NCBI GenBank assembly: GCA_025924515.1
Contig: JAICIE010000004.1
Span: 1,228 to 65,227, forward strand
Direction: 5' to 3'
From: Jatrophihabitans sp.
GTDB taxonomy: Bacteria > Actinomycetota > Actinomycetes > Mycobacteriales > Jatrophihabitantaceae
DNA length: 64,000 bases
The notes below the pieces were generated by a model that was not told the origin of the DNA, searched no databases, and saw nothing but the letters and a program-made list of their open reading frames with translations. A program made the position numbers and the translations under genes. This document shows, piece by piece, positions 2,927-21,732 of this stretch (position 1 is the stretch's first letter; every line of letters starts with the position of its first letter).

Positions 2927-4090
2927 TCAGCCGTCCTCGTCGAGCCAGGCCCGGATGGCCGCTCCGTGCTGGTCGAGGGTGGGCGGCGCGAGGTTCTCCT
3001 CCCGCGCGCCGCCGTACCCCGCGTCGTCCAGCCGCAGGGGTGGGCCAGGCAGGCTGATCCGCCCGAGCGCGGGGTGCGCGACGTCGATCAGGAGTCCTTG
3101 TGATCGCGTCTGGTCCCACTCGTAGACCTCGGCCAGGTTGCGTACCTTTCCGGCCGGGACGCCGAGATCGGCCAGGCGCTGCAGCAGATCAAGGCTCGGG
3201 TAACGGCTGAACGCCTCGTTCACGGCAGCGATCACCGCATCGCGGTCACGGACCCGCTGCGGATTGGTCGCCCACTCCTCGCGGTCGAGTCCGAACGGTG
3301 ACGCGAACCTGCGCCACAGGCCGTCGCTGCCCACCGAGATCTGCACCGGGCCGTCGGCCGCCGAGAACAGTCCGTACGGGCAGATCGACGGATGGTGCCC
3401 GCCCGTCGCCTGCGGGACCTCGCCGGCGACCGTGTACCGGGTGCCCTGGAAGGCGTGCACCCCCACGATCGCGGCGAGCAGGCTGGTGCGCACGACCCGG
3501 CCGCGTCCGGTGCGTGCGCGCTCGTGCAGCGCCGCAACCGCACCGTACGCGCCGTACATCCCGGCGAGCAGGTCGGCGATGGGCACGCCGACACGCGTGG
3601 GCTGCTCCTGCGACGGTCCGGTCAGCGACATCAACCCGCCTTCGCCCTGGGCGATCTGGTCGTATCCGGCGCGTCCGCCCTCCGGCCCGTCGTGCCCGAA
3701 GCCGCTGATCGACAGGATGACAAGGCCGGGATTCAGCCCATGCAGCCGGCGGACGCCGAAGCCGAGCCGGTCCAGCACCCCGGGACGGAAGTTTTCGACC
3801 AGGACGTCAGCCTTCCTGATCAGCCGGGCCAAAACGTCACGACCCTCTTCGCTCTTGAGGTCGAGTGCGATCGATTCCTTGTTGCGGTTGCAGGACAGGA
3901 AGTAGGTCGAGTGCTCGTTCCCGTCGCTGCCCGGCACGAACGGCGGCCCCCACCCGCGGGTGTCGTCGCCCCCGTCCGGCGACTCGACCTTGATGACGCG
4001 GGCGCCCAGGTCGCCCAGCATCATGGCGGCGTGCGGGCCGGCGAGCGCGCGCGACAGGTCCACCACCAGGACGTCCTCGAGCAGGCTCAC
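2927..4090 (-). CDS. Type III (CaiB/BaiF/Frc family) CoA-transferase
   Basis: ORF 2927..4297 trimmed to GTG 4090 (VSLLEDVLVVDLSRALAGPHAAMMLGDLGARVIKVESP...VLVENFRPGVLDRLGFG). The GTGA start overlaps the hyuB-like stop. Confidence 0.85.
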   Translation of the reverse strand: MSLLEDVLVVDLSRALAGPHAAMMLGDLGARVIKVESPDGGDDTRGWGPPFVPGSDGNEHSTYFLSCNRNKESIALDLKSEEGRDVLARLIRKADVLVENFRPGVLDRLGFGVRRLHGLNPGLVILSISGFGHDGPEGGRAGYDQIAQGEGGLMSLTGPSQEQPTRVGVPIADLLAGMYGAYGAVAALHERARTGRGRVVRTSLLAAIVGVHAFQGTRYTVAGEVPQATGGHHPSICPYGLFSAADGPVQISVGSDGLWRRFASPFGLDREEWATNPQRVRDRDAVIAAVNEAFSRYPSLDLLQRLADLGVPAGKVRNLAEVYEWDQTRSQGLLIDVAHPALGRISLPGPPLRLDDAGYGGAREENLAPPTLDQHGAAIRAWLDEDG

Positions 4091-5943: not shown

Positions 5944-8042
5944 CGCGCCGCCCGTGCGGTTATGATCAGGCTTCCGTACTTGTCGACACGGGCGGTGAAC
6001 CCCGGGTGCAGCGGGACGGTCGAGCCGTATTCCTCGATGACGGCAGGCCCGTGGACGACCGCGCCCGCCGACAGGTCGCCGCGCCGGAAGAGAGGCGTCA
6101 CTTGGTAGCCGCCCGCGGGATCGAAGCACACGGACCGCGCACCGGTCGGCAGGTCGGTGCCGCCACCGGCGAGCGGGCGCAGCTCAGGACGGCTGATCGG
6201 TCCCACGCCGGTCACGCGGAGGTTCACCCATTCGACCTGCTGTCTGGCGTCGTCGCGGAAGTCGTATCCGTAGAGGGCGCGGTGCGCGTCGTGGAACGCG
6301 GCGGCGACGAGCTGCGGGTAAAGCTCGCCGTCCGCAACCGGCACCCGCACCTCGAACGCCTGGCCGAAGTAGCGCAGGTCGGCCGACCGCAGGAAGCGCT
6401 GCTCCTCGGGGTGGAAGCCCTCGACCGCCAGCGCGTCGGCGGCGTCGCGCTGCAGGTCGGCGAACACGTCCTCGACCGCCGCCGGATCGAGATCGGCGTG
6501 CCGCGATACGGCCGTCCGCACGTAGTCGTTCTTGACATCGACGGTCAGCAGGCCGAACGCGCTGACGTTGCCGGGGTTCGGCGGCACGAGGACGGAGTGC
6601 AGACCGAGAATGTCGACCAATCGGCACAGCAGCAGCGGTCCCGACCCACCGAACGTGACCAAGGTGAAGTCGCGGACGTCCAGCCCGCGCTTCACGGTCG
6701 TCTGTCGGAGCGCGTTCGCCTGGTTCCACGCCGAGATCTCCAGGATGCCCGCCGCGCAGGCTGCGGTGTCGAGTCCGAGCCGGCCGGCGAGCTGTTCGAT
6801 GCCGTCTTCCGCGGCCGCGAACTCGAGCGGGACTTCACCGCCGAGAAGGGACGGCGGAATCCGCCCCATGACGAGGTGGGCGTCGGTAACGGTCACGTCC
6901 CGGCCGCCGCGCGAATAGCACAGCGGGCCCGGGTCGGCTCCTGCGGATGCGGGGCCGACCTTCAGGGTTCCTTCCGGTGACAACCAGGCGATCGAGCCGC
7001 CTCCGGCGCCGACGGTGACCACGTCGAGCATCGGAATCTTCGACGGGTAGCTGCCGATCGACCCCTCGGTGGTGAGCGTCGGCTCGCCGTCGAGAACGAC
7101 GGCCACGTCGGTGGAGGTGCCGCCGCCGTCGCAGGTCAGCACCCGGTCGAACCCGGCGGTACGGGCGATGAGGGCAGCGCCGAGCGCTCCGGCGGCAGGT
7201 CCGCTGAGGACCGTCGTGATCGGTTGGTGCACGACCTCGTCGGCCGACAGCACGCCGCCGTTCGACTTCATGACGTAGAACGGGAGCGGTCGGTCGCTCA
7301 ACTGCTCGAGCCGCGAGCTGATCGATCGGACGTAGCGGGCCACCCGCGGCTTGACCGCCGCGTCGACGAGCGTGGTCATCGACCGTTCGTATTCGCGGTA
7401 TTCCCGCAACACCTCGCTGGAGATCGAGACGACGGCGTCCGGGTGCTCACGCGCCAACACGTCCTGCATGCGGCGCTCGTGGTGCGGGTTGGCGTAGGAG
7501 TGCAGGAAGCAGACGCCGAGGGTATTCACCCCCCGGGCCCGGAACCACCGGGCGACCGCGACCGCGCCGTCCTCGTCGAACGGCCGGATCTCGGCGCCGG
7601 TGAAGTCCAGCCGTCCGCCGACCGTCTTCACCAGGTGGGCGGGAACGATGCGGTCGGGCTTCACCCAGAAATACGAGTTCCCGTAACCGTCCGGCACCGA
7701 TTGCCGCGCGATCTCCAGAATGAACTCATACCCCTCGGTGGTGATGAATCCGAGCGTGCCCAGCTTGCCCTCGAGCAGCTGGTTCGTCGCCACCGTCGTG
7801 CCGTGGCTCACCGAGTGGAGCTGGTCGCCGGCCGCGCCCAGCTGCTCCAGGATCTTCGTCAGACCGGCGAGGAAGGCATCGGCCGGATCTTCCGGCGTGG
7901 ACGGAGTCTTGGTGCTGGTGAGCAGGCCGGTCGACTCGTCGAAGGCAACCACGTCGGTGAACGTGCCGCCGGTGTCGATGCCGATCCGCAGCCGCCCGGT
8001 GGCGGTCGCCGGCCGACTGTCCGGCCTCGTCACGGGTGGCAT
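5940..8042 (-). CDS. Hydantoinase A / oxoprolinase family protein (HyuA-like, ASKHA ATPase fold)
   Basis: RIGIDTGGTFTDVVAF N-terminal motif and a later CDGGGTSTDV motif; 700 aa. Confidence 0.85.
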   Translation of the reverse strand: MPPVTRPDSRPATATGRLRIGIDTGGTFTDVVAFDESTGLLTSTKTPSTPEDPADAFLAGLTKILEQLGAAGDQLHSVSHGTTVATNQLLEGKLGTLGFITTEGYEFILEIARQSVPDGYGNSYFWVKPDRIVPAHLVKTVGGRLDFTGAEIRPFDEDGAVAVARWFRARGVNTLGVCFLHSYANPHHERRMQDVLAREHPDAVVSISSEVLREYREYERSMTTLVDAAVKPRVARYVRSISSRLEQLSDRPLPFYVMKSNGGVLSADEVVHQPITTVLSGPAAGALGAALIARTAGFDRVLTCDGGGTSTDVAVVLDGEPTLTTEGSIGSYPSKIPMLDVVTVGAGGGSIAWLSPEGTLKVGPASAGADPGPLCYSRGGRDVTVTDAHLVMGRIPPSLLGGEVPLEFAAAEDGIEQLAGRLGLDTAACAAGILEISAWNQANALRQTTVKRGLDVRDFTLVTFGGSGPLLLCRLVDILGLHSVLVPPNPGNVSAFGLLTVDVKNDYVRTAVSRHADLDPAAVEDVFADLQRDAADALAVEGFHPEEQRFLRSADLRYFGQAFEVRVPVADGELYPQLVAAAFHDAHRALYGYDFRDDARQQVEWVNLRVTGVGPISRPELRPLAGGGTDLPTGARSVCFDPAGGYQVTPLFRRGDLSAGAVVHGPAVIEEYGSTVPLHPGFTARVDKYGSLIITARAAR

Positions 8043-8662
8043 CAGCAGCGCCTGCCGATGCGTCCCACCGCGGTCCCGACGAGCACGCCGGCCAGCGCGA
8101 CCACTGCACCGACGAGCACGCCGCGGAGAAAGGTGTCCTGGCCGGCGGCAACCGGGGCGGGCGCCGAGAAGACACCGGCGGGCGGTGCCGGCGCCGCGGC
8201 CGTCTCGGCCGGTACCGCCTCCTTGCCGGATAGGACGTCGTCGACCGCGGCGAAGAACTCTGCGGCCATCCGCCTGCCGACCGCGGCGAGCATCCGCTGT
8301 CCGACGCCGGCGACCATGCCGCCGACGACGGCGTCGGCGTCATACCGCACGAGGGTCTGCGAGTCGCCGGCCGGATCGAGAAGGACGCGGACGTCGGTGC
8401 GAACGGTGCCCGGCGCGCCCGCTCCCGAGGCCGTCATGACGAACGAGTGCGGTTCCTTCTTGTCCGACAGCGCCACCTCGCCGGTGTACGTGCCCTTGAC
8501 CGCCGCAACGCCCGCGGTGACGGTCATGGAATAGGCATCCGCTCCCGTCGTCTCGAGCCGTTCGCAGCCGGGGATGGTCCGCACCAAGACCGCCGGGTCG
8601 TTCAACGCCCGCCAGACCCGGTCGACCGGCGCGTGCAGGGTCGCCTCACCGCTGACCTTCAT
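8042..8662 (-). CDS. CoxG-like SRPBCC protein with C-terminal membrane anchor
   Basis: MKVSGEATLHAPVDRVWRALNDPAVLVRTIPGCERLE... (CoxG/SRPBCC). Hydrophobic C-terminal segment FLRGVLVGAVVALAGVLVGTAVG. ATGA overlap with the large-subunit stop. Confidence 0.8.
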   Translation of the reverse strand: MKVSGEATLHAPVDRVWRALNDPAVLVRTIPGCERLETTGADAYSMTVTAGVAAVKGTYTGEVALSDKKEPHSFVMTASGAGAPGTVRTDVRVLLDPAGDSQTLVRYDADAVVGGMVAGVGQRMLAAVGRRMAAEFFAAVDDVLSGKEAVPAETAAAPAPPAGVFSAPAPVAAGQDTFLRGVLVGAVVALAGVLVGTAVGRIGRRC

Positions 8663-11037
8663 CCGGTTTCCTTCGAACGACGCAGCTCCCAGAGTTCGCT
8701 GGGAGAAATCGGCATGCTCGTGAGCACAATGCCTTCCGCGTCCTCGATCGCCGACGCGATCGCGGCGGCACCCGGAATCACTCCCGCCTCCCCGGCTCCC
8801 TTGATGCCGAGCGGATTCATGGGGGAGGGAGTTTCGAGGTGGTCGATCTCGACGGAGGACGGAACCTCACTGGCATAGGGCATCAAAAAGTCCATGAATG
8901 ACGCATTCTGCAGCTGACCGGCATCGTCATAAGCCATCCGCTCGTACAAGGCACCGGCCACGCCCTGGGCGACGCCGCCGTGTATCTGTCCCTCGACGAT
9001 GCGCGGGTTGATCAGCGTGCCGCAGTCGTGCACCACGCAATAGCGCAGGATTTTAACCTCGGCGGTGTCAGGATCGGTCTCGACCACCACCGCATGCATA
9101 CCGTTGGCGAAGGTCGACTGCATCGGCGAGAAATAGTCCCGGCCCTCGAGCCCGGGCTCGTCGTCCTCGGGCACCGGCGGTTTCGCCGGGTCACCGCTCG
9201 CGAACTGCGTGGCTGCCTGCGCGGCGGTGTCGAACGCGTAGCGAAGCGGGTTGGAGAGCACGGCGACGGTGCCGAGCGAGATCTCAGCGCCGGGCGCGCC
9301 GACGACGCGAACGACCCCGTCGACGATCTCGAGGTCGTCGGGGTTCGCCTCGAGAGCGTCGCCGGCCACCCGGAGCGCCTTCTCCTTCGCGGCCCGGGCG
9401 GCGAGAGCGATCGCCGAGCCGCTCATCACCGCGGCTCGGGAGGCGAACGTGCCGACCGCGTAACCGAATCGGCGGGTGTCACCGGTGACCACCTCGACGT
9501 CGTCGAGCGGAACGCCGAGTTCGTCGGCCACGATCTGCGCGAAGACGGTCTGGTGACCTTGTCCTTGCGACGTCAGTCCCGTGGCAACCTTCACCTTCCC
9601 GGACGTTTCGATGACGACGTGGCCGCCCTCGTAGGGGCCCACCCCGGTGCCCTCGACATAACAGGCCAACCCGATCCCGATTCGACGGCCCTCGGCCCGG
9701 GCCGTCTCGCGCGCCTGCTCGAAATCATCCCAGCCGACGAGCTGCTTCAGCTTCGCCAAGGACGCGGGGAAGTCCCCGGAGTCGTAGATCAGCGGCCGGC
9801 CGTCCTGGAACACGAGGCCGTGGTCGTAGGGCATTTCGTGTGGTTCGATGAAGTTGCGTTCCCGCACGGTGGTGCGGTCGAGGCCGAGCTCGCGGGCGAT
9901 GGCGTCCATGACGCGCTCCATCACGAACACGCCCTGAGGACGGCCGGCCCCGCGGTAGGGGGTGACGATCACCGTGTTCGTGTAGAGCGAGTCGAAGGTG
10001 ACTCGGTATGCGCCCGGCTTGTACGGGCCGAGCAGCTGCGTCGACGTGATGATCGGCACGATCAGTCCGTACGGGATGAAGGCGCCGTGGTCGTGCCAGA
10101 AACGCACATCGAGCCCGAGCAGTCGCCCGTCGTCGTCGAAACCGACCCGCACCGAGTGCAGCTGGCCGCGTTCGTGGGCGCTGGCGACGAAGTGCTCCCG
10201 GCGATCTTCGACGAACTTGACGGGGCGGGCGAGCAGGCGTGCCGCCCAGGGCACGAGCACCTCCTCCGGCCACGGATGCATGATCTTGACTCCGAACCCG
10301 CCGCCGACGTCGGGGGTGATCACGTCGACGTCGACCAATGGGAGGTCGAGCTTGGCCGCGACCGCAGCGCGCACCCCGGTCGACGTCTGCGTCGACGACC
10401 AGATCCGCATGCGGCGCGCTTCGGCGTCCCAGCGCGCCAGCACGCCGCGTCCCTCCAACGGGGTCGACGCGGAGCGCTCGATGGCCAGGTCGAGGGACAG
10501 GACGTGCGGCGCGGCGGCCAGCGCCGCGTCGACGTCACCTGTCGATTGCGTCATCCGGGCGGCCAGATTGCCCGGAACGTCCTCGTGCACCAAGTGCGCG
10601 GCGGCACGCGCCGCGGCGATGCCGACGACGGCCGGCAGCGGCTCGTACCGGACGGCGATGCGTTCGGCGGCGTCCTCGGCGAGGTAGCGGTCCTCGGCGA
10701 CGACCATGGCGACCGGCGCGCCGACGTGGTGCACCTTGTCCCGGGCGAGCGCGTACGGGGTGCGCCCGTGCGTCAGGGTGGGGTGCGGGATGAGCAGTGG
10801 CAACGGCTCGGCGAGCCGGTCCGGGAGGTCGTCGTAGGTGTAGATGGCCACCAAGCCTTCGACGTCGAGCGCCGCGCTGACGTCGACGTCGGTGATCCGC
10901 GCGTGGGCGTGCGGGCTGCGGACGAACGCCGCTGCGAGCGCGTCGTGACCGAGGTCGTCGAGGTAGGCACCGGCACCGCGCAGCAGCCGCTCGTCCTCGA
11001 CTCGGGGGATCGGCTGGCCGAACCAGCGGGTGCTCAT
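8659..11037 (-). CDS. Molybdopterin-binding large subunit of a xanthine dehydrogenase/CoxL-family hydroxylase (form-II type, AYRGAGR-like active-site loop)
   Basis: ORF 8659..11385 trimmed to ATG 11037 (MSTRWFGQPIPRVEDERLLRGAGAYLDDL). Contains VTPYRGAGRPQG rather than the CO-dehydrogenase AYXCSFR signature. About 792 aa. Confidence 0.85.
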   Translation of the reverse strand: MSTRWFGQPIPRVEDERLLRGAGAYLDDLGHDALAAAFVRSPHAHARITDVDVSAALDVEGLVAIYTYDDLPDRLAEPLPLLIPHPTLTHGRTPYALARDKVHHVGAPVAMVVAEDRYLAEDAAERIAVRYEPLPAVVGIAAARAAAHLVHEDVPGNLAARMTQSTGDVDAALAAAPHVLSLDLAIERSASTPLEGRGVLARWDAEARRMRIWSSTQTSTGVRAAVAAKLDLPLVDVDVITPDVGGGFGVKIMHPWPEEVLVPWAARLLARPVKFVEDRREHFVASAHERGQLHSVRVGFDDDGRLLGLDVRFWHDHGAFIPYGLIVPIITSTQLLGPYKPGAYRVTFDSLYTNTVIVTPYRGAGRPQGVFVMERVMDAIARELGLDRTTVRERNFIEPHEMPYDHGLVFQDGRPLIYDSGDFPASLAKLKQLVGWDDFEQARETARAEGRRIGIGLACYVEGTGVGPYEGGHVVIETSGKVKVATGLTSQGQGHQTVFAQIVADELGVPLDDVEVVTGDTRRFGYAVGTFASRAAVMSGSAIALAARAAKEKALRVAGDALEANPDDLEIVDGVVRVVGAPGAEISLGTVAVLSNPLRYAFDTAAQAATQFASGDPAKPPVPEDDEPGLEGRDYFSPMQSTFANGMHAVVVETDPDTAEVKILRYCVVHDCGTLINPRIVEGQIHGGVAQGVAGALYERMAYDDAGQLQNASFMDFLMPYASEVPSSVEIDHLETPSPMNPLGIKGAGEAGVIPGAAAIASAIEDAEGIVLTSMPISPSELWELRRSKETG

Positions 11038-11510
11038 CGCGCCAACTCGGCGGCGCGCAGCACGGCGCGCACGATGTTCTGATAGCCGGTGCAGCGGCAG
11101 AGGTTCCCGCCGATCATGTCCCGCGCCTGCTGCTCGTCGGGATCGGGGTTGTCGCGCAGCCCCGCGGTCACGGTCGTCAGGAATCCTGGGGTACAGAAGC
11201 CGCACTGCAGGCCGTGGCAGTCGCGGAAAGCCTGCTGGACGGCAGACAGCGCGCCGTCGGGCTCGGCGAGGCCTTCGACGGTGGTGATGTCGTTGCCCTC
11301 GACCGACACCGCCAACAGCAGGCAGGACCGCATCGGGAGCCCGTCGACCAGGACCGTGCACGCCCCGCACACCCCGTGTTCGCAACCGACGTGGGTGCCG
11401 GTCAGCCGCAGGTCGTGGCGCAGGCAGTCGCTGAGCAGCCGCCGGGCGGGGATGGACAACGGGCGGGGCACGCCGTTCACGGTCAGCACCACGTCGATCA
11501 GTTCGCTCAT
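11034..11510 (-). CDS. [2Fe-2S]-binding small subunit (CoxS-like) of the hydroxylase
   Basis: ORF 11034..11786 trimmed to ATG 11510. Cys clusters: GCEHGVCGACTV and CGFCTPGF...CRCTGY. 158 aa. ATGA overlaps on both sides. Confidence 0.9.
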   Translation of the reverse strand: MSELIDVVLTVNGVPRPLSIPARRLLSDCLRHDLRLTGTHVGCEHGVCGACTVLVDGLPMRSCLLLAVSVEGNDITTVEGLAEPDGALSAVQQAFRDCHGLQCGFCTPGFLTTVTAGLRDNPDPDEQQARDMIGGNLCRCTGYQNIVRAVLRAAELAR

Positions 11511-12370
11511 GCAGCCGCCGCCCCCGAGGCCCTGGCCGCCGCGAGAGCCTGCGTGAGCGCCCGCTCGGTGAGCACTCCGGCCAGAGCGCGTCGATAGTCG
11601 GCGCTTGCGTGCAGGTCCGCCTCCGGCTGCACCTGCGCCCGCGCCGCCTCGCCGGCGGCGCGCGGGTCTGCGGCCTGGTCGGTCAGTTCGAGAACGAGCG
11701 GGGTCGGGGCGACGGAGAGGTAGGCGCAGCGCGCGGCCGCCACCGCGCCGTCGTCCTTCAGTCGGACGAAAGCGGCCACGCCGCAAACCGCGTAGTCCCC
11801 GGCACGGCGTGACACCTCGACGAACGCGGTACCGCTGGAAGGCGGGAGAACCGGCAGCGCCGCCTCCACCGCAAGCTCGTCATCGCGAACGTCCGACTCC
11901 AGCGGGCCGAGGAAGAGCTCCCCGGCGGTCACGTTGCGTTCGCCTCGCGAGGACCGGACGCGCAGGCTGCCGCCGAGCAGCGCCAGCACCGCGGTCATCT
12001 CGCCCGCGGGGTCGGCGTGGACGATGCTGCCGACCGTGGTGCCGCGATTCCGGATCGTCGCGTGGGCCACCAGGCGCAACGCCTGCCGCAGCAGCGGCTG
12101 CGCCGCGCCGGCGGCCGGGTCGGCCAGCACGCGGGCGTGCCGGGCCAACGCGCCGATCCGCACGACGTCGCCGTCGACGCGCACGTAGTCGAGCTCGCGC
12201 AGCCGGTTGATGTCGACCAGCGCGGACGGATGCGCCAACCGCATGGACACGAGCGGGATGAGGGACTGGCCGCCCGCGAGAACTTTCGCCCCGCTGCCCA
12301 GCGTCCCGAGCACCTCGACCGCGCTGTCGACCTGCTCGGGACGCCGGTAGTCGAACGGGGCCGGCTTCAC
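11507..12370 (-). CDS. FAD-binding medium subunit (CoxM-like) of the hydroxylase
   Basis: MKPAPFDYRRPEQVDSAVEVL...AKVLAGGQSLIPLVSMRL; 287 aa. The GTGA start overlaps the permease stop. Confidence 0.85.
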   Translation of the reverse strand: MKPAPFDYRRPEQVDSAVEVLGTLGSGAKVLAGGQSLIPLVSMRLAHPSALVDINRLRELDYVRVDGDVVRIGALARHARVLADPAAGAAQPLLRQALRLVAHATIRNRGTTVGSIVHADPAGEMTAVLALLGGSLRVRSSRGERNVTAGELFLGPLESDVRDDELAVEAALPVLPPSSGTAFVEVSRRAGDYAVCGVAAFVRLKDDGAVAAARCAYLSVAPTPLVLELTDQAADPRAAGEAARAQVQPEADLHASADYRRALAGVLTERALTQALAAARASGAAAA

Positions 12371-13860
12371 AGGCGTCTCGTCGTCTCTGGGGGCGTCGTC
12401 TCGGCGAACGGCGACACCTCGCCGTCGGGGGTCTCGACGTTACCGGTCGAGAGCATCGTGCCGCCCTCGTACGCGCGGCCACGGATCTGCGGTTCCCGTA
12501 GCTCCGGCGGGGCAAGCCAACGCATCGCGTGATAGGCGATAAGGACGACGATCGTGCCGAGGGCGATGCCGCCGATGGAGAAGTTGTCCGTGAACTTCAA
12601 GGTCACGCCGCCGATGCCTGCGATGATCCCGGCCGCCAGCGGCACGAGGTTCACCGGGTTGGCGAAGTCGACGCGGTTCTCCACCCAGATCTTCACACCG
12701 AGCAGCCCGATCATCCCGTAGAGGATCACAGTGATGCCGCCGAGTACGCCGCCCGGAGTGCCGTCGACGATGGCGCCGAACTTCGGGCAGAACCCGAGCA
12801 GGATGGCGACGAGCGCGGCAACGTAGTAGGCCGCCGTCGAGTAGATGCGGGTGGCCGCCATGACCCCGATGTTCTCGGCGTAGGTGGTAGTCGGGGATCC
12901 GCCCACGACCGATGCGATCACCGTGCCCACGCCGTCGCCGATGAATGCCCGGCCGAGGGAGGGGTTGAGGTCCTCCCCGGTCATCTCGGAGACCGCTTTC
13001 ACGTGGCCGGCATTCTCCGCCAGCAGCGCGATGACGCTGGGCAGCACCAGCAGGATGAATGCGCCGGAGAAGCTTGGCAGGTGCCAGCCCACGACGGCGT
13101 CCTTGCCGGCATGGGAAAAGGTCGATCGGGCAGGGAAGCCGATCCAGTCCGCCGCTCGGACGCCCGACCAGTTCACCCGGTCGTGCAGCACCGGTTTCGG
13201 CCCGGTGGGCAGCACCGAGTTGATCTTCCCGAAGATGTGGTCGAACGCCCACGAGATCAGGTAGCCGAAGAGAAGTCCCAGGAAGATGGCGATCCGTGAC
13301 CAGAAGCCGCGGAACAGCACCGCTGCGCAGATGACGAACGCCATCGTGAGCAGCGCTACCCACTGGTCCTGCGGCCAATAGGTGTTGGCAACGACCGGCG
13401 CGAGGTTGAAACCGATCAGCAGCACCACGGCGCCGGTGACGGCTGGCGGCAGAACCTTCTGGACAATCTCGCCCCCGAGGAAATGCACGACGACGCCGAC
13501 AACTGCGAGGACCAGACCGGCAATGAGGATGGCGCCGGTGACGTCCTTCGAGTTGCCGCCCTGAGCCCGGATGGCGGTCACCGCCGCGACGAACGACGCC
13601 GATGTGCCGAGATAGGACGGGATCCTGCCGTTGACGATCAGCAGGAAGAGGATCGTCGCCACCCCGGACATCATCACCGCGAGGTTGGGGTTGAGGCCCA
13701 TGATGACCGGGAACACGAACGTCGCGCCGAACATGGCGACGACGTGCTGGGCGCCCAGGCCGATCGTCTTTCCCCAGGACAACCGTTCGCCCGGACCGAC
13801 GACCTCTCCCGGTGGGGGCGTCCTGCCTCCGTACACCAACCTCCAGCCGAATGCCGACAT
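12367..13860 (-). CDS. NCS2-family nucleobase:cation symporter (uracil/xanthine permease-like)
   Basis: ORF 12367..13956 trimmed to ATG 13860. GLGAQHVVAMFGATFVFPVIMG and ENIGVMAATRIYS motifs, with multiple TM segments. Confidence 0.85.
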   Translation of the reverse strand: MSAFGWRLVYGGRTPPPGEVVGPGERLSWGKTIGLGAQHVVAMFGATFVFPVIMGLNPNLAVMMSGVATILFLLIVNGRIPSYLGTSASFVAAVTAIRAQGGNSKDVTGAILIAGLVLAVVGVVVHFLGGEIVQKVLPPAVTGAVVLLIGFNLAPVVANTYWPQDQWVALLTMAFVICAAVLFRGFWSRIAIFLGLLFGYLISWAFDHIFGKINSVLPTGPKPVLHDRVNWSGVRAADWIGFPARSTFSHAGKDAVVGWHLPSFSGAFILLVLPSVIALLAENAGHVKAVSEMTGEDLNPSLGRAFIGDGVGTVIASVVGGSPTTTYAENIGVMAATRIYSTAAYYVAALVAILLGFCPKFGAIVDGTPGGVLGGITVILYGMIGLLGVKIWVENRVDFANPVNLVPLAAGIIAGIGGVTLKFTDNFSIGGIALGTIVVLIAYHAMRWLAPPELREPQIRGRAYEGGTMLSTGNVETPDGEVSPFAETTPPETTRRL

Positions 13861-14002
13861 CGTCTGCCGCTCCCTTCGCCGCGAGGACGGGCCGTGCCCG
13901 TCAGCGCAGGAGTGTCCGCCGCGCGCGGGATAGAGAACGGTAGGACCGCCGATCAAGCGGGTTCATTGTGGAGTTTTGACGAAGGACCGCCGCGTCCTTC
14001 GG

Positions 14003-15697
14003 TCACAAACCGCGCATTTGCAGCACCCGGAGCGCGAGAGCGATGTCCAGGCGCAGGTCGGGGTTCGTCATGAACTGCCCGACGATCGACTCGAGTTTGC
14101 CGATGCGGTAGCGCAGCGTGTTGTAGTGGAAGTGCAGGATCCGGGCCGTCTCGGCGACATTGCAGTTCGTGTCGATCAGCACCTGCAGCGTGCGCCGGAG
14201 ATCGGTCGACTCAGGCCGATCGGTCCCGAGCGACCCGAGCACCTCGGCGGCGAACGAGCGCAGCTCCTCGCTGTCGGTGACCAGGGACAGCAGCCGATGG
14301 ACGCCGAGGCTGTCGAAGTGCGCGATGGCTCCGCGCCCACGCGTCCGCCGGCCCACGACGAGCGCTTTGCGGGCCTGGTCGTACGCGGCCGGCAGGCCGT
14401 CCGGTGATCGGACGACCCGGCTGACTCCGGCGGAGAAGGAACGCCGGCCGCCGCCGCGATCTCCGGTCACCGCGGCGACAAGCTCTGCCACCGTGGCCTG
14501 GGCGGCCGCCTCGGTGGCAGGAACCACCGCCACGATCTCCTGGCTGATCCCCACCACCGGAACAGCCCGGTCGCGGGCCGCGACCACCTGCTGCCACGCC
14601 GAGGTGAGCCGATCGTGGGGCGTGCGTCCGGTGAGCGGAGAGCCGTCGTCGAGATCGTCGAGTTGCGCGACCAGGACGACCAGAGGCCGGCGGATGTCCC
14701 AACCAAGCGCCGCGCAGTGGGCGGCGACCTGGTCGGGGGGTCCGGCCGTCTCGGTGAGCGCGTCGCGCAGGAAGTCGCCGCGGAACTTCGACTCGACGGC
14801 GGCGACGGCCAACTCCTTGGTGATCGCCAGCGCCGCGACGGTGCCGGCGCGGTCAAGTGACTGCACGGCGGCCGTGCCGAGTCCGCCGACGGGGGCGTAG
14901 GCGACGATGCGGCCGTGCTCGGTGCGTCCGGCGCCGATGTCCACGACGAGCAACTGTCCGTCGGCGCCCGGGATCGACTGCACCCCCGGCCGGACGCGCT
15001 CCACCAAGAACCGCCCGGAGGGGTCGAACAACTGCAGGGCGTCGAACGCCGCCAGGTCGTCGGAGGCACCCGCGGTCGCCCTGACCCGCCCGTCCGGGGT
15101 ACAGACGAGGACGGCCGCGGCGAGCGCCCGGGCGACCTCGTCGGCGATCTGCGGCAGCCCACCACCGTCGAGCACGACCGTCGTGAGGGCGCGGTGCAGC
15201 CGGTCGGCGGCGTCGAGCGCGACCGCCTGCCGGTCGGCGAGCGCGGTGAAAACCTCGCTCATGACCTCGCCGAAGCCGACGTCGGCCGGAAGGCAGAGCA
15301 CCGGGAAGCCGAGCTCGTCGGCCGCGGCGAGCATGGCGAACGGGAGCGTGTCGAGATAGCGGCCCGGTTTCACGCCGAGCGCGGCAACCCCGCGGGCCAC
15401 GAGGGCCCGGACGAACCCGACCAGATCGTCCTCGTCGAAGGGGCGTCCGGTGTCCGGATGGCGCAGCAGGTAACCGGCAACCAGCAGCAACTCGTCCGGC
15501 TCGACCTCCGGCAGCTCGTCCGGAACCTCGATGAGGTTCACCCGAGAGATCGATCCGTCGAGCCCGGCCCGGCCCGCGGCGACCTCCGCGCTCCGCATGC
15601 TCGGCAGCCCGACGAGGTCGCGAACGGTGATGCGGTATTCCCCCGACGCTGGCAAGTCCTGACGGCGCGCGCGGCGAGCGTTGGCAACACCTTCCAT
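14003..15697 (-). CDS. PucR/CdaR-family transcriptional regulator (purine catabolism regulator-like)
   Basis: ORF 14003..16048. The N-terminal 117 codons are Arg/Pro-rich junk, so I trimmed to ATG 15697 (MEGVANARR...ITVRDLVGLPSM...). C-terminal PucR HTH: CNVAETARILHFHYNTLRYRIGKLE. The exact start is uncertain. Confidence 0.75.
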   Translation of the reverse strand: MEGVANARRARRQDLPASGEYRITVRDLVGLPSMRSAEVAAGRAGLDGSISRVNLIEVPDELPEVEPDELLLVAGYLLRHPDTGRPFDEDDLVGFVRALVARGVAALGVKPGRYLDTLPFAMLAAADELGFPVLCLPADVGFGEVMSEVFTALADRQAVALDAADRLHRALTTVVLDGGGLPQIADEVARALAAAVLVCTPDGRVRATAGASDDLAAFDALQLFDPSGRFLVERVRPGVQSIPGADGQLLVVDIGAGRTEHGRIVAYAPVGGLGTAAVQSLDRAGTVAALAITKELAVAAVESKFRGDFLRDALTETAGPPDQVAAHCAALGWDIRRPLVVLVAQLDDLDDGSPLTGRTPHDRLTSAWQQVVAARDRAVPVVGISQEIVAVVPATEAAAQATVAELVAAVTGDRGGGRRSFSAGVSRVVRSPDGLPAAYDQARKALVVGRRTRGRGAIAHFDSLGVHRLLSLVTDSEELRSFAAEVLGSLGTDRPESTDLRRTLQVLIDTNCNVAETARILHFHYNTLRYRIGKLESIVGQFMTNPDLRLDIALALRVLQMRGL

Positions 15698-15735
15698 GCG
15701 AGGACGGTACGCGGGATCGGGTACGGTCCGGGATC

Positions 15736-16455
15736 GTGGAGCTGGACGCGTCCTGCAGCGTCCTCGCCGCCCCGCTTCTCGACGGTCCGGTGCGGCAACT
15801 GCCCGTGCTCGGCGCTGGGCCCGCGGCGCTGTATCTCGACGCCGGCGCCAGCGTGGTGGCCGTCCTCTCGGATCACGCGGTGCAACTCCCCCGTTCGGTG
15901 CGCGTCGCGACCGCCTCGCTGACCGGACTCCGGCCGGACGCGTCGGTGCGCGTCGGCGACGGCGCACTCTCCTGGCTCTCGGGGGGCCGAGCGGTCCGGG
16001 TGCGGGTGGTGCGGCGCTGGTTGCCCGGGCGCGTGCCCTCGGTGGCACCCCGGGGCGAGCGGGTGCGCGAACTGACGGCGGCCGTGGCCGTTCCCGCGGT
16101 CGAGGTCGCCGAGCTACTCGGGCGCGGCCCGGGGCTGACGCCGAGCGGTGACGACGTCCTGGCCGGACACCTGCTCGGCTGCCGAGCGTTCGGGATCGCC
16201 GGCGAGCCGCTGCGCCGCTCGGTCCTCGCGCTGGCCACCACCCGCACGACGGCGTTGTCCGCGGACCTGCTGCGGCTGGCGGCTGAGGGCTGGTGCATTC
16301 CCCAAGCCGCCGCGATCATCGCGGCACTCGGCCGGGAGCGTCCGGATCCGACGGCCCTGCAGGCGTTGATCGGCGTCGGGTCGTCCTCGGGCTCCGCCCT
16401 GGCCGCGGGGATAGCTGCCGCTGCCGCGCAGGTCGTTCTGGGCGCGGCCGCATGA
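15736..16455 (+). CDS. DUF2877 protein (E. coli YlbF/AllH-like)
   Basis: 239 aa with the family-typical GRGPGLTPSGDDVLAG motif. ATGA overlap with the fdrA-like start. Confidence 0.7.
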   Translation: MELDASCSVLAAPLLDGPVRQLPVLGAGPAALYLDAGASVVAVLSDHAVQLPRSVRVATASLTGLRPDASVRVGDGALSWLSGGRAVRVRVVRRWLPGRVPSVAPRGERVRELTAAVAVPAVEVAELLGRGPGLTPSGDDVLAGHLLGCRAFGIAGEPLRRSVLALATTRTTALSADLLRLAAEGWCIPQAAAIIAALGRERPDPTALQALIGVGSSSGSALAAGIAAAAAQVVLGAAA

Positions 16456-17939
16456 GCGCGGCCGGCGGTCCGGACGTCGAGTACGTCGAGGCGCGCCGCG
16501 GCGCCTACGCGGACTCGGTCACTCTGCTGCAGGTGACCCGGCGGGTGGCGGACACCCCCGGAGTGCGCGGCGCGCTGGTGGCCATGGCAACCGACCTCAA
16601 CCTCGACCTGGCGCGCGGGATGGGTTTCTCCGTTCCGGAGTCCGCGGGACCCAACGACCTTCTCATCGCGGTTCGAGCGGAGGACGAGGCGGCGCTGGCA
16701 GCGGCGAAGGACGCGGTACTCGCGGCGCTCACCGCGCCCGCCGGCGCGACGGCGGCCCCGACGGATGTCCCGCCCGCGACGACGGCATCCGCGCTGCGCC
16801 GCGAACCGGCCGACCTCGTCCTGGTGTCGGTCCCGGGCCCCTCCGCGTTCGCGGAAGCGGCCGACGCACTCGACGCCGGCTGCGACGTCATGATCTTCAG
16901 CGACAACGTCCCGGTGGAACAGGAGGTCGCGCTCAAGCGCCGTGCGCTGTCCGAGGGACGGCTGGTCATGGGTCCGGACTGCGGCACCGCGGTCGTCGGC
17001 GGGATCGGCCTGGGTTTCGCCAACGCGGTCGGCCCGGGCCCGGTGGGGCTGGTGGCCGCGTCCGGAACGGGCGCTCAGCAACTGATGTCCCTGCTCGACG
17101 AGGCGGGCGTCGGGATCAGCGCGTGTCTCGGCGTCGGCGGACGCGACCTCTCCGCGGCGGTCGGCGGGTTGGCGACGGTGTCCGCCCTCGATCTCCTCGA
17201 CGCCGACCCGGCCACCGAGCTGGTCGTGGTGGTGTCGAAGCCGCCGGCGCAAGAGGTCGCCGACCGGGTGCGCGAGCATGCGGACCGGTTGCGGACGCCG
17301 GTCGTCCTGGGGTTGCTCGGCGAGGGGCAGCCCGACCTCACCGCGCTCGCCGCGTCGGTGCTGCAGCGCCTCGATCGGCCCGCGCCGGAGTGGCCGCGGT
17401 GGACGCCGCGGTCGGTCGCTGACCCGCGCCCGGGCTCGCTGCGCGGCCTCTACTCCGGGGGCACGCTCTGTGACGAGGCGATGCTGCTGGCCGCCGGGTC
17501 GCTCGGCCGCGTCCTCTCGAACATCCCGCTGCGTCCCGACTGGCGGTTGGACCGCACCCTGCGTTCGCCAGGTAACCTGATGATCGACTTCGGAGACGAC
17601 GACCTCACCCGGGGGCGCCCGCACCCGATGATCGACGGGTCCCTGCGCGCCGAGCGCCTCCTGGCCGAGGCCGACGACCCCACCGCGGCGGTGGCTCTAC
17701 TGGACGTCGTCCTGGGGTACGGCGCCGCCGCCGATCCGGCCGCCGACGTGGCCGCTGCGATCGCGAAGGCATGCGCGGCCGGGCTTCGGGTGCTCGTTGC
17801 GCTGGTCGGCACGGCCGGCGATCCGCAGAACCGGGAGGAGCAGGCCGGGCGGCTCGTCGACGCGGGGGCGGAGGTTTTCGCGTCGAACGCGCAGGCTGCC
17901 CGCGCGGCCGTCAGCCTCGTCGCGGGAGCCCGGGAATGA
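16452..17939 (+). CDS. FdrA-family protein (acyl-CoA synthetase/succinyl-CoA synthetase-alpha-like; E. coli FdrA/AllF-like)
   Basis: ORF 16293..17939 trimmed to ATG 16452. Strong resemblance to FdrA as I recall it: DSVTLLQV, VMIFSDNVPVEQEVALK, LVMGPDCGTAV, ASGTGAQQL, GVGGRDLS, VSKPP, GRPHPMID. Confidence 0.8.
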   Translation: MSAAGGPDVEYVEARRGAYADSVTLLQVTRRVADTPGVRGALVAMATDLNLDLARGMGFSVPESAGPNDLLIAVRAEDEAALAAAKDAVLAALTAPAGATAAPTDVPPATTASALRREPADLVLVSVPGPSAFAEAADALDAGCDVMIFSDNVPVEQEVALKRRALSEGRLVMGPDCGTAVVGGIGLGFANAVGPGPVGLVAASGTGAQQLMSLLDEAGVGISACLGVGGRDLSAAVGGLATVSALDLLDADPATELVVVVSKPPAQEVADRVREHADRLRTPVVLGLLGEGQPDLTALAASVLQRLDRPAPEWPRWTPRSVADPRPGSLRGLYSGGTLCDEAMLLAAGSLGRVLSNIPLRPDWRLDRTLRSPGNLMIDFGDDDLTRGRPHPMIDGSLRAERLLAEADDPTAAVALLDVVLGYGAAADPAADVAAAIAKACAAGLRVLVALVGTAGDPQNREEQAGRLVDAGAEVFASNAQAARAAVSLVAGARE

Positions 17940-19336
17940 GTTTGCTGGCCGGCGATCCTCGCGTGTTGAGCGTGGGTGCGGAGCTGTTCGCCGACTCGGT
18001 GCGGGCGCAGGCGGTGACCGTCCGGACTGTCGACTGGCGTCCGCCGATGGCGGGGTCGGAGAACGACCTCGCCCGCGTGCTGGCCGACCCCCGGCGCAGC
18101 GCCGCGAACAGCACGGCCGTGGATCGGATGCTGGCGGTGTCGGCGCGGCTGGTCGACGTCGTGCCGGCCGGCGATCTGCTGGGGCTCGGGCCCTCCGACT
18201 ACCTGCACGCCGGCCCGCCGATCGACTGGGACCGGGCATCGGGACCGCTTCGCGGCGCGCTGATCGGGGCGGCGCTGTTCGAGGGTGTGGCAGCGAGCCC
18301 CGACGACGCCGAGCGGGTGCTGGCCGCGGGCTCGTCGATCAGCCTGGCGCCGTGCCACTCGCGCTCGGCTGTGGGACCGATGGCCGGGGTCGTCTCGCGC
18401 TCGATGTGGATGTTCGTGATCGAGGACGAGGCCACGGGGCGCCGCACCTACTGCTCGCTCAACGAGGGGCTGGGGAAGGTGCTGCGCTACGGCGCGTACG
18501 GGCCCGAGGTGCTCGACCGGTTGCGCTGGATGTCAGCCGTGTTGGGGCCACTGCTGCAGACCGCGCTCCGGGCACGCGGGCCGGTCGACGTCACCGCCCT
18601 TCTCGCGCAGATGGTGCAGATGGGAGATGAGGCGCACAACCGCAACCGCGCAGGAACCCTGATGTTCCTGCGTGAGCTCCTCCCGGCGCTGATCGGCAGC
18701 GGCGCCCCGGCGGGCGACGTGGCCGAGGCGGTCCGGTTCGTCGCGGGCAACGACCACTTCTTCCTCAACCTCGCCATGCCGGCATGCAAACTGGCCCTCG
18801 ACGCTGCACGGGATGTGCCGGGGTCGTCGATGGTCGTGGCCATGGCGCGCAACGGCACCGACTTCGGGATCCAGGTGTCCGGAACCGGCGATCGGTGGTT
18901 TACCGGCCCCGCCCAGGTGCCGGACGGGCTGTTCCTCGGCAACTACGGCCCCGCAGACGCCAACCCGGACATCGGTGATTCAGCGATCACCGAGACGGCG
19001 GGGCTGGGCGGGTTCGCCATGGCGGCGGCGCCCGCGATCGTCCGGTTCGTCGGGGGCGCGGTCGCCGACGCGCTCGCCACCACGTCACGGATGTACGAGA
19101 TCACGCTGGCCGAGCACCCGACGTTCAGCATTCCTGTGTTGGAGTTCCGGGGGACGCCGTGCGGGATCGACGTGACGAAGGTCGTCCGCACCGGGATCCT
19201 GCCGCAGATCAACACCGGAATGGCCGGGCGGGCTGCCGGCACCGGTCAGGTCGGGGCGGGACTGGTCACGCCGCCCGGCTCGGTGTTCGCGGACGCGCTG
19301 CGGGCCTTGGCAGCGGCCGCGCCCGCGGTCTGCTGA
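17936..19336 (+). CDS. DUF1116 protein (E. coli YlbE/AllG-like)
   Basis: ORF 17771..19336 trimmed to ATG 17936 (ATGA overlap with the fdrA-like stop). Assigned from size, position after FdrA and overall similarity as recalled. No single diagnostic motif was verified. Confidence 0.6.
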   Translation: MSLLAGDPRVLSVGAELFADSVRAQAVTVRTVDWRPPMAGSENDLARVLADPRRSAANSTAVDRMLAVSARLVDVVPAGDLLGLGPSDYLHAGPPIDWDRASGPLRGALIGAALFEGVAASPDDAERVLAAGSSISLAPCHSRSAVGPMAGVVSRSMWMFVIEDEATGRRTYCSLNEGLGKVLRYGAYGPEVLDRLRWMSAVLGPLLQTALRARGPVDVTALLAQMVQMGDEAHNRNRAGTLMFLRELLPALIGSGAPAGDVAEAVRFVAGNDHFFLNLAMPACKLALDAARDVPGSSMVVAMARNGTDFGIQVSGTGDRWFTGPAQVPDGLFLGNYGPADANPDIGDSAITETAGLGGFAMAAAPAIVRFVGGAVADALATTSRMYEITLAEHPTFSIPVLEFRGTPCGIDVTKVVRTGILPQINTGMAGRAAGTGQVGAGLVTPPGSVFADALRALAAAAPAVC

Positions 19337-19369
19337 GTCACCGGAACAGGCACGCCACCGTCGCGGCGA

Positions 19370-21619: not shown

Positions 21620-21732
21620 GGACGGTTCGGAGCCTACACGCAGGCCATGACCGGGCGGCGCCGCGGGAAGGGGTTGGCGTTGACGCTGCCAACCCGTGCG
21701 GTGGAGACTTGAGCCCTCGGAAGGAGCCGCGG

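What the first reader, a model, noticed from the sequence alone, without database searches (positions are those of the whole stretch)
15736..19336. AllH/AllF/AllG (DUF2877/FdrA/DUF1116) homologues with no ureidoglycolate dehydrogenase or allantoin genes nearby
In E. coli these three genes lie in the allantoin regulon beside allD and a carbamate kinase. Here the trio is divergently paired with a PucR regulator, and the only carbamate kinase sits in the opposing operon. No allantoinase, allantoate amidohydrolase or ureidoglycolate dehydrogenase is found in the window. That raises the possibility that the complex acts on a different N-carbamoyl-acyl substrate, such as ureidomalonate from barbiturate ring opening. 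The gene order (DUF2877 first) also differs from E. coli.
Basis: partly seen in the sequence, partly recalled or inferred. Interest (0 to 1): 0.6.

Follow-up and report, generated by a model that had tools for sequence, protein, structure and literature searches.

The report
Carbamoyl-transfer trio in uracil breakdown cluster
Three genes related to E. coli's oxalurate-splitting enzyme sit in a widely conserved actinobacterial cluster for oxidative uracil breakdown, where they most likely split the opened pyrimidine ring with phosphate to give carbamoyl phosphate (and ATP) instead of urea, a step I could not find described in print.

Summary
AllH (15736-16455), AllF (16452-17939) and AllG (17936-19336) are intact, translationally coupled genes, 32/39/47% identical to E. 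coli AllH/F/G. They lie divergent from a PucR regulator. No allantoin or oxalurate genes were found in the window or in the 83%-complete genome.

The opposing operon encodes a uracil-type permease, a Mo-hydroxylase, HyuAB, a CoA-transferase, the genome's only carbamate kinase, and a barbiturase 85% identical to the characterised Rhodococcus enzyme.

Across 191 genomes of the same order, 56 of 57 barbiturase-family carriers also carry AllG. Carbamate kinase lies within 3 kb of barbiturase in 44 of those 56. In another actinobacterial family, barbiturase, kinase, AllHFG and the hydroxylase lie co-directionally in one gene string. All hydroxylase-linked AllG form one clade apart from E. coli AllG.

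The best reading (about 0.6) is ureidomalonate + phosphate -> malonamate + carbamoyl phosphate, then ATP through the kinase. HyuAB's role is unexplained.

I found no paper describing this step. The scan has reached the same reading on at least eight other genomes, so this window is one more instance of a recurring, still untested prediction.

The parts
15736..16455 (+). allH-like gene (DUF2877), 239 aa, first gene of the trio
   Evidence: PF11392 at 79 bits. 32% identical to E. coli AllH over the C-terminal half. An alignment of 49 homologues shows an invariant G-x-G-x-G-L-T-P-x-x-D-D motif.
16452..17939 (+). allF/fdrA-like gene, 495 aa
   Evidence: Ligase_CoA domain. NCBIfam FdrA at 386 bits, below the 433 cut-off. 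39% identical to E. coli FdrA along its length but lacks the ~50-aa C-terminal tail. Scores 245 bits to PDB 3dmy. ATGA overlap with allH.
17936..19336 (+). allG-like gene (DUF1116), 466 aa
   Evidence: PF06545 at 322 bits. 47% identical to E. coli AllG. Scores 370 bits to PDB 3clq, an uncharacterised protein. ATGA overlap with allF.
15698..15735 (.). 38-bp divergent control region between pucR and allH
   Evidence: Read directly from the sequence. The consensus scan found no sigma-70-like promoter. Leaderless transcripts are an inference.
14003..15697 (-). PucR-family transcription regulator
   Evidence: PucR, GGDEF_2 and HTH_30 domains. A PucR gene lies divergent from allH in 56 of 80 related loci.
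12367..13956 (-). NCS2 nucleobase permease (RutG/uracil-permease-like); the true start may be nearer 13860
   Evidence: PF00860 at 251 bits. The best NCBIfam matches are RutG and uracil permease, both below their cut-offs.
11507..12370 (-). Mo-hydroxylase FAD subunit (CoxM-like)
   Evidence: FAD_binding_5 and CO_deh_flav_C domains.
11034..11510 (-). Mo-hydroxylase 2Fe-2S subunit (CoxS-like)
   Evidence: A 158-aa ORF, 56-82% identical to the small-subunit gene at the same position in related clusters. Pfam was not run on it.
8659..11037 (-). Mo-hydroxylase large subunit; candidate uracil/thymine dehydrogenase
   Evidence: MoCoBD_1, MoCoBD_2 and hammerhead domains. NCBIfam 'CODH_aero_grp5' at 1507 bits. 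The substrate is inferred from context only.
8042..8662 (-). CoxG-like protein
   Evidence: PF06240 at 84 bits.
5940..8042 (-). HyuA (ATP-dependent hydantoinase/oxoprolinase family, A subunit)
   Evidence: Hydantoinase_A at 291 bits. Nearest NCBIfam is caprolactamase alpha, below its cut-off.
4087..5943 (-). HyuB (B subunit)
   Evidence: Hydantoinase_B at 464 bits.
2927..4090 (-). Family III CoA-transferase
   Evidence: PF02515 at 380 bits. Nearest NCBIfam families are dicarboxylate CoA-transferases, all below their cut-offs.
1994..2923 (-). Carbamate kinase, the only one found in the genome
   Evidence: TIGR00746 at 332 bits; the PRK12352 carbamate-kinase subfamily is above its cut-off. 42% identical to E. 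coli AllK. Single copy.
855..1961 (-). Barbiturase
   Evidence: 685 bits and about 85% identity over 367 aa to Rhodococcus erythropolis barbiturase (PDB 5hwe), against about 330 bits to cyanuric acid hydrolases.

Best explanation
AllH-AllF-AllG here is most likely a three-subunit catabolic carbamoyltransferase of the E. coli oxamate-carbamoyltransferase type. I propose that its substrate is ureidomalonate (N-carbamoyl-malonamate), the one-carbon homologue of oxalurate (N-carbamoyl-oxamate).

Proposed route:
1. Uracil, and perhaps thymine, enters through the NCS2 permease.
2. The CoxLMS-type Mo-hydroxylase oxidises it to (5-methyl)barbiturate. This step is inferred.
3. Barbiturase opens the ring to ureidomalonate. 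This rests on 85% identity to the characterised enzyme.
4. AllHFG cleaves the acyl-urea bond with phosphate, giving malonamate plus carbamoyl phosphate. This is inferred and is the step in question.
5. Carbamate kinase converts carbamoyl phosphate + ADP to ATP, NH3 and CO2. This is the family-level function.
6. Malonamate is deamidated by a malonamidase-E2-like amidase. That amidase is in the cluster in other lineages; in this genome it lies on another contig. Malonate is then activated by the family III CoA-transferase. Both steps are inferred.

The PucR regulator between the two divergent operons would control both. HyuAB is an ATP-dependent lactam hydrolase. It probably offers a second ring-opening route, because it stands where barbiturase would be in lineages that lack barbiturase. 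Its exact role is open.
For: Family membership: significant Pfam matches for all three genes and full-length similarity to the E. coli proteins. E. coli AllFGH was shown to catalyse oxamate + carbamoyl-P <-> oxalurate + Pi (PMC11326118).

Context in the window: barbiturase, the genome's only carbamate kinase and a uracil-type permease lie in the operon divergent from the trio.

Conserved synteny: about 60 of 80 loci with the closest AllG show CoxG-MoL-FeS-FAD-permease-PucR divergent from AllH-AllF-AllG. In another family (labelled f17) and in G164, the genes lie co-directionally in the order Bar-permease-CK-AllH-AllF-AllG-FAD-FeS-MoL-CoxG-amidase-HyuA-HyuB-CoAT.

Co-distribution in 191 genomes of the window's order: 56 have both barbiturase and AllG, 1 has barbiturase only (a low-scoring AtzD paralogue), 9 have AllG only, 125 have neither. 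In the mixed genera g250, g252, g260, g263 and g272 exactly the same genomes carry both genes. In the window's own family the same 9 of 17 carry both.

Carbamate kinase lies within 3 kb of barbiturase in 44 of the 56. A kinase that needs carbamoyl phosphate, placed beside a ring-opening amidohydrolase, implies phosphorolysis of the ureide.

Phylogeny: all Mo-hydroxylase-linked AllG form one clade (SH-aLRT 96). This clade is separate from E. coli AllG and from AllG linked to isochorismatase-type hydrolases.

No oxalurate source: there is no Ldh_2/AllD, allantoicase or OHCU decarboxylase, and no allantoinase or AllC above cut-off, in this genome. Two complete relatives that carry the cluster (G097, G382) have no Ldh_2 gene at all.

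The in-cluster amidase of the f17 type scores 282 bits, full length, to malonamidase E2. That is about twice its next-best PDB match, so the pathway passes through malonyl-amides.

No urease alpha subunit was found in this genome. Urea from a hydrolytic route would therefore be a poor nitrogen outlet.
Against: No enzyme of this clade has been assayed.

The only biochemistry on the pathway that I know of (Rhodococcus erythropolis; Soong, Ogawa and Shimizu 2001-2002, from my own knowledge) reports a hydrolytic ureidomalonase that gives urea + malonate.

The malonamidase-like amidase could itself be that ureidomalonase. The trio would then be free for another substrate.

The trio is not tied to barbiturase as such. 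In the phylum sample, 34 of 52 AllG-bearing genomes lack barbiturase. In family f11, Mo-hydroxylase-HyuAB-AllF-AllG form one co-directional gene string, with AllH just downstream of AllG in three of five genomes, and no barbiturase was found in those genomes.

Five of the 56 barbiturase+AllG genomes have no carbamate kinase.

In this window the trio is on the opposite strand and about 13.8 kb from barbiturase. No amidase for malonamate lies in the cluster. HyuAB has no assigned step.

AllF falls below the NCBIfam FdrA cut-off.

The genome is only 82.6% complete, so missing allantoin genes are not proof of absence.
Confidence: 0.6

Rival explanations
1. It is a true oxamate carbamoyltransferase. 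Its oxalurate comes from an unrecognised source, for example oxidation and ATP-dependent opening of a five-membered ureide (hydantoin or parabanate type) by the Mo-hydroxylase and HyuAB.
For: The only characterised member acts on oxalurate (PMC11326118). HyuAB belongs to a hydantoinase/lactamase family. HyuAB is as constant a neighbour of AllFG as barbiturase, and it stands alone beside AllFGH in family f11.
Against: No AllD/Ldh_2 or allantoin genes were found in the genome or in two complete relatives. There is near-perfect co-distribution and adjacency with a bona fide barbiturase and a uracil-type permease. This AllG is in a different clade from E. coli's. The in-cluster amidase resembles malonamidase, not an oxamate amidase.
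Confidence: 0.12
2. The trio handles a different carbamoyl compound of the same pathway. Candidates are ureido-methylmalonate from thymine only, or a CoA-bound intermediate such as ureidomalonyl-CoA or malonamoyl-CoA. Free ureidomalonate would then be hydrolysed by the amidase.
For: A family III CoA-transferase follows AllG directly in some loci (L064). AllF has a CoA-ligase-type domain. A malonamidase-like amidase coexists with the trio in f17-type clusters. HyuAB and barbiturase coexist, which hints at two parallel substrates.
Against: E. coli AllFGH has no reported CoA requirement in the parts of PMC11326118 that I read (abstract and Discussion). The window's cluster has no amidase, so free ureidomalonate would have no other outlet there.
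Confidence: 0.12
3. AllF works as an acyl-CoA synthetase-like enzyme (the older annotation of FdrA), for example activating malonate. It would not be part of a carbamoyltransferase. Carbamate kinase would serve something else.
For: AllF is homologous to succinyl-CoA synthetase alpha. Malonate activation is needed somewhere in the pathway.
Against: AllF lacks the SCS-type GHAG phosphohistidine motif, as does E. coli FdrA. It stays coupled to AllG, and is fused to it in one lineage. Carbamate kinase is adjacent to barbiturase in 44 of 56 genomes. A dedicated CoA-transferase is already in the cluster.
Confidence: 0.05

Closest known systems
E. coli oxamic transcarbamylase AllF-AllG-AllH with catabolic carbamate kinase AllK (allFGHK operon; Kim & Kim 2024, PMC11326118; 2022, PMC9843812)
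   Same: The same three protein families (47/39/32% identity for G/F/H). They are encoded together and linked to a carbamate kinase, in a genome without a detected urease. The proposed chemistry is the same: phosphorolysis of an N-acyl-urea to an amide plus carbamoyl phosphate.
   Different: There is no allD or allantoin regulon. The gene order is H-F-G, and the kinase lies in the divergent operon. AllF lacks the ~50-aa C-terminal tail. This AllG falls in a separate, Mo-hydroxylase-linked clade. The predicted substrate is ureidomalonate, one carbon longer than oxalurate.
Oxidative pyrimidine pathway of Rhodococcus erythropolis JCM 3132: uracil/thymine dehydrogenase, barbiturase, ureidomalonase (Soong, Ogawa, Shimizu 2001-2002; barbiturase structure PDB 5hwe)
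   Same: Barbiturase is about 85% identical. A Mo-hydroxylase and a uracil-type permease fit the first step.
   Different: The described last step is hydrolytic (urea + malonate). Here carbamate kinase and AllHFG take that place. No in-cluster amidase and no urease were found in this genome.
allFGHK beside biuret/triuret hydrolase genes in nitrifiers (PMC12625717, 2025)
   Same: This is another case of the trio plus kinase outside an allantoin context and next to ureide hydrolases. I saw the same pattern in actinobacterial genomes G069 and G099 (isochorismatase-type hydrolase - AllF - AllG - CK).
   Different: Those AllG fall in a different clade from the window's. They are linked to biuret-type chemistry, not to barbiturase or a Mo-hydroxylase. 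The authors still read them as oxalurate enzymes.
Catabolic transcarbamylase + carbamate kinase modules (arginine deiminase and agmatine/putrescine pathways; YgeW)
   Same: The logic is the same: a ureido group leaves as carbamoyl phosphate and yields one ATP.
   Different: The protein fold is unrelated (ATCase/OTCase family), and the carbamoyl group sits on an amine rather than on an amide nitrogen.

Membership tests
AllFGH oxamate carbamoyltransferase family | AllG (DUF1116, PF06545) subunit | tested here: met
   322 bits against a cut-off of 27; 47% identical to E. coli AllG.
AllFGH oxamate carbamoyltransferase family | AllH (DUF2877, PF11392) subunit | tested here: met
   79 bits against a cut-off of 25; weak 32% identity to E. 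coli AllH over 117 aa.
AllFGH oxamate carbamoyltransferase family | AllF/FdrA subunit | tested here: inconclusive
   Full-length 39% identity to E. coli FdrA with shared motifs and 245 bits to PDB 3dmy. However, NCBIfam FdrA scores 386 bits, below its 433 cut-off.
AllFGH oxamate carbamoyltransferase family | Three genes encoded together and linked to a catabolic carbamate kinase | tested here: met
   ATGA-coupled operon. The kinase is in the divergent operon here and directly upstream of allH in f17-type clusters.
AllFGH oxamate carbamoyltransferase family | Genomic link to an oxalurate source (allD and allantoin genes) | tested here: not met
   None found in the window or the genome. None in complete relatives G097 and G382.
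AllFGH oxamate carbamoyltransferase family | Groups with E. coli AllG in a tree | tested here: not met
   It falls in a separate clade of 35 Mo-hydroxylase-linked sequences, SH-aLRT 96.
AllFGH oxamate carbamoyltransferase family | Oxamate + carbamoyl-P <-> oxalurate + Pi activity | not testable with these tools
   Needs an enzyme assay.
Oxidative pyrimidine (barbiturate) pathway | Barbiturase | tested here: met
   685 bits and about 85% identity to R. erythropolis barbiturase, twice the score to cyanuric acid hydrolases.
Oxidative pyrimidine (barbiturate) pathway | Uracil/thymine dehydrogenase | tested here: inconclusive
   A CoxLMS-type Mo-hydroxylase with a uracil-type permease is conserved in the cluster. 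I had no sequence of a characterised enzyme for comparison.
Oxidative pyrimidine (barbiturate) pathway | Hydrolytic ureidomalonase giving urea | tested here: not met
   The window's cluster has no amidase. No urease alpha subunit was found in the genome. A malonamidase-E2-like amidase lies on another contig beside glnA/glnE.

The most novel reading that the evidence does not exclude
AllHFG of this clade is a ureidomalonate:phosphate carbamoyltransferase ('malonamate transcarbamylase'). It would define an ATP-yielding, urea-free branch of the oxidative pyrimidine pathway. The neighbouring Mo-hydroxylase would be the long-orphan uracil/thymine dehydrogenase, and HyuAB an ATP-driven alternative to barbiturase.
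Probability: 0.5. Interest if true: 0.72.

Novelty: new variant of a known kind. Interest (0 to 1): 0.62.

Why it matters
The oxidative route of pyrimidine breakdown has been known from enzyme activities since the 1950s. To my knowledge only barbiturase has had a firmly assigned gene. This cluster supplies candidates for every other step. It also predicts a different last step, in which the ureido group leaves as carbamoyl phosphate, worth one ATP, and not as urea.

The AllFGH family was first given a function in 2024. It would then be a family of acyl-urea phosphorylases whose clades are matched to different ureides (oxalurate, biuret-type, ureidomalonate).

The cluster is common, present in about 30% of sampled genomes of this order. 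It occurs in cultured Nocardioides, Embleya, Streptomyces and Pseudonocardia strains, so the prediction can be tested directly.

Tried and rejected
Complex prediction for AllG with AllH, each with its own 49-row alignment, gave no verdict (score 0.00). I do not use it either way. Kim & Kim also got no heteromer from AlphaFold-multimer.

Urease depletion: I asked whether carriers of barbiturase+AllG lack urease more often than other genomes. They do not. Three of 18 carriers have urease, against about 65 of 401 in the phylum sample. The urease argument is therefore only permissive.

Context of the characterised R. erythropolis barbiturase: the 120 best homologues were all metagenomic or unnamed at 84-90% identity, so the reference protein could not be picked out. 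A plasmid search gave only distant AtzD genes plus two large actinobacterial replicons without annotation. Whether that strain also carries AllHFG remains unknown.

Six full-text searches did not find it.

The promoter and terminator consensus scan of 13800-19700 found nothing.

I suspected an AllG-CoA-transferase fusion from long open frames. In f82-type genomes the long frame is in fact AllF-AllG. In L033 it lies in a frameshifted MAG contig.


Full report
**What is in the window.** The window is about 70% G+C. I called genes by third-position GC and then by profile searches. At the reported coordinates there are three intact plus-strand genes.
- AllH/DUF2877: 15736-16455, PF11392, 79 bits.
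- AllF/FdrA-like: 16452-17939, CoA-ligase domain. NCBIfam FdrA scores 386 bits, under its 433 cut-off.
- AllG/DUF1116: 17936-19336, PF06545, 322 bits.

The junctions are ATGA overlaps. The operon ends 33 bp before a convergent gene. Against E. coli K-12 proteins taken from the annotated allD-fdrA-ylbE-ylbF-ybcF region, identities are 32% (AllH, C-terminal half), 39% (AllF, full length) and 47% (AllG).

**The surroundings.** A PucR-family regulator (14003-15697, minus strand) starts 38 bp from allH. Behind it runs one minus-strand string of genes:
- an NCS2 permease, whose best matches are RutG and uracil permease;
- a CoxM/CoxS/CoxL-type Mo-hydroxylase and CoxG;
- HyuA and HyuB;
- a family III CoA-transferase;
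- a carbamate kinase;
- an AtzD-family amidohydrolase.

The AtzD-family protein scores 685 bits and is about 85% identical over 367 residues to the crystallised barbiturase of Rhodococcus erythropolis. It scores about 330 bits to cyanuric acid hydrolases. I therefore treat it as a barbiturase. The carbamate kinase is the only one in the genome.

**Is there an oxalurate source?** The genome (G000; 3.7 Mb, 253 contigs, 82.6% complete) has:
- no Ldh_2/AllD, no allantoicase and no OHCU decarboxylase;
- no allantoinase or AllC above cut-off. The best AllC-like hit is a 31%-identical M20 paralogue.

Because the genome is incomplete, I also searched five complete relatives that carry the same cluster. 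Two of them (G097, G382) have no Ldh_2-family gene at all. In the other three, the Ldh_2 genes lie 0.35 Mb or more from allG. The trio therefore does not depend on an allantoin-to-oxalurate route.

**Related loci.** A scan of species-representative genomes returned 418 relatives of AllG. The 80 closest (65-81% identical) are all Actinomycetota: Nocardioides, Embleya, Streptomyces, Pseudonocardia and many MAGs. In about 60 of them the layout matches the window, with CoxG-MoL-FeS-FAD-permease-PucR divergent from AllH-AllF-AllG.

I then fetched 40 kb around allG in ten genomes that also hold a barbiturase. In family f17 and in G164 the genes lie co-directionally in the order Bar-permease-CK-AllH-AllF-AllG-FAD-FeS-MoL-CoxG-amidase-HyuA-HyuB-CoA-transferase, with PucR divergent from barbiturase. 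What is split over two strands in this window is thus a single gene string elsewhere.

**Co-distribution.**
- *Order sample, 191 genomes.* 56 have both barbiturase and AllG. One has barbiturase only (G083, a low-scoring AtzD paralogue). Nine have AllG only, and 125 have neither.
- *Mixed genera.* In genera g250, g252, g260, g263 and g272, exactly the same genomes carry both genes. In the window's own family the same 9 of 17 do.
- *Distance.* Where both genes are on one contig (40 genomes), the median distance is 19 kb, and 37 pairs lie within 50 kb.
- *Carbamate kinase.* It lies within 3 kb of barbiturase in 44 of the 56 genomes, elsewhere in 7, and was not found in 5. Those five are all genus g260.
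- *Caveats.* These counts include one unpublished genome, G538, which has all three genes. Without it the figures are 55 and 43 of 55. Another unpublished genome, G407, counts only in the kinase tally. Related genomes are not independent, so I give counts and no statistics.
- *Phylum sample, 401 genomes.* 18 have both, 3 have barbiturase only and 34 have AllG only.

**AllG subfamilies.** A tree of 52 AllG sequences puts all Mo-hydroxylase-linked ones, including the window's, in one clade (SH-aLRT 96). E. coli AllG, with an E. coli-like actinobacterial copy, is apart from it. Apart too is a group in which AllF-AllG-CK follow an isochorismatase-type hydrolase (G069, G099). That arrangement recalls the biuH/trtA-allFGHK clusters reported in nitrifiers (PMC12625717). 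Each clade thus has its own ureide context, which is what one expects if substrate specificity has diverged.

**A variant without barbiturase.** In family f11, CoxG-FAD-FeS-MoL-HyuA-HyuB-AllF-AllG form one co-directional gene string. AllH lies just downstream of AllG in three of the five genomes, upstream of the string in G291, and was not found in G358. The kinase lies elsewhere, and no barbiturase was found in those genomes. HyuAB's nearest curated family is the ATP-dependent caprolactamase. The simplest reading is that HyuAB can open the oxidised ring at the cost of ATP. Why the window has both HyuAB and barbiturase is unexplained. A split between barbiturate and 5-methylbarbiturate is only a guess.

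**Downstream chemistry.** The amidase between CoxG and HyuA in f17-type clusters scores 282 bits, full length, to malonamidase E2. That is twice its next-best solved relative. It is present in seven of the ten fetched clusters. This fits malonamate as an intermediate. The same enzyme could instead be the hydrolytic ureidomalonase. The window's cluster has no amidase. The genome's best malonamidase-like gene sits on contig C142 between glutamine synthetase and GlnE genes. The CoA-transferase resembles dicarboxylate CoA-transferases and follows AllG directly in some loci.

**Mechanism.** Oxalurate is N-carbamoyl-oxamate, and ureidomalonate is N-carbamoyl-malonamate. The E. coli enzyme catalyses oxamate + carbamoyl-P <-> oxalurate + Pi (PMC11326118). 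I propose the homologous reaction, ureidomalonate + Pi -> malonamate + carbamoyl-P, followed by the kinase.
- *Shown:* family membership, barbiturase orthology, synteny, co-distribution and clade separation.
- *Inferred:* the substrate, the role of the Mo-hydroxylase, and everything downstream.

Kim & Kim note that urease-negative enterobacteria keep AllFGHK. This genome has no detectable urease alpha subunit. However, carriers of the cluster are not depleted in urease compared with other actinobacteria.

**Literature and earlier notes.** Seven full-text searches found no paper that links barbiturase or ureidomalonate with carbamate kinase, FdrA, DUF1116 or DUF2877. The scan's own notes show the same reading reached independently on at least eight other genomes and on this window as a whole. 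This finding is therefore one more instance of a recurring, untested prediction. One note mentions a 2024 paper on uracil dehydrogenase genes, which I could not locate.

**Verdict.** I class it as a new variant of a known kind, with confidence about 0.6 in the ureidomalonate reading.

Noticed in passing
L135 (G572) 6006-8990; also L136 (G556) and L137 (G548): In one genus (g260), AllF and AllG lie in the same frame inside a single open frame of about 1095 codons, which looks like an AllF-AllG fusion. All five cluster-bearing genomes with no detectable carbamate kinase (G421, G491, G548, G556, G572) belong to this genus. Of the five, I inspected the fused frame only in G548, G556 and G572.
   Followed up: partly
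L110, L113, L115-L117 (family f11): CoxG-FAD-FeS-MoL-HyuA-HyuB-AllF-AllG lie co-directionally, with AllH just downstream in three of the five genomes. No barbiturase was found in these genomes, and the carbamate kinase is elsewhere. HyuAB may be an ATP-dependent substitute for barbiturase.
   Followed up: partly
L112 (G069) 8697-13281; L114 (G099) 5142-10996: An isochorismatase-family hydrolase is followed by AllF-AllG, with a carbamate kinase close by. This resembles the biuret/triuret-hydrolase + allFGHK clusters reported in nitrifiers. The AllG falls in a different clade from the window's.
   Followed up: partly
L089/L090 (G086): PucR and an AtzD-family gene only 44% identical to the window's barbiturase (probably a cyanuric acid hydrolase) lie next to AllF-AllG of the non-Mo clade. 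This looks like a second, independent pairing of a Toblerone-fold ring opener with the trio.
   Followed up: no
L145 (own genome contig C142) 6072-7625: A malonamidase-E2-like amidase lies between a glutamine synthetase gene and GATase/GlnE genes. It may be the malonamidase that the window's cluster lacks.
   Followed up: partly
L107 (G097) 15167-16468: An ISL3-family transposase and an unrelated exporter gene interrupt the cluster between CoxG and HyuA in a complete relative.
   Followed up: no
own genome contig C3, about 24600-27300 (L001, L007): An M20 AllC-like carbamoylase paralogue (31% identical to E. coli AllC) lies beside a cyclic amidohydrolase-like hit. This may be a hydantoinase/carbamoylase or reductive-pyrimidine pair.
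   Followed up: no
window 21709-23167: A DUF1326 gene is followed by a PpoB2 'copper chaperone' family membrane protein. The gene pair has no known function.
   Followed up: no
window 19370-19981: A 203-aa ORF convergent on allG has no Pfam match. It is not conserved next to allG in any of the 80 related loci.
   Followed up: partly
L097 18563-19906 (G007): A PAS-domain protein is inserted between AllG and the Mo-hydroxylase FAD subunit in an f17-type gene string.
   Followed up: no
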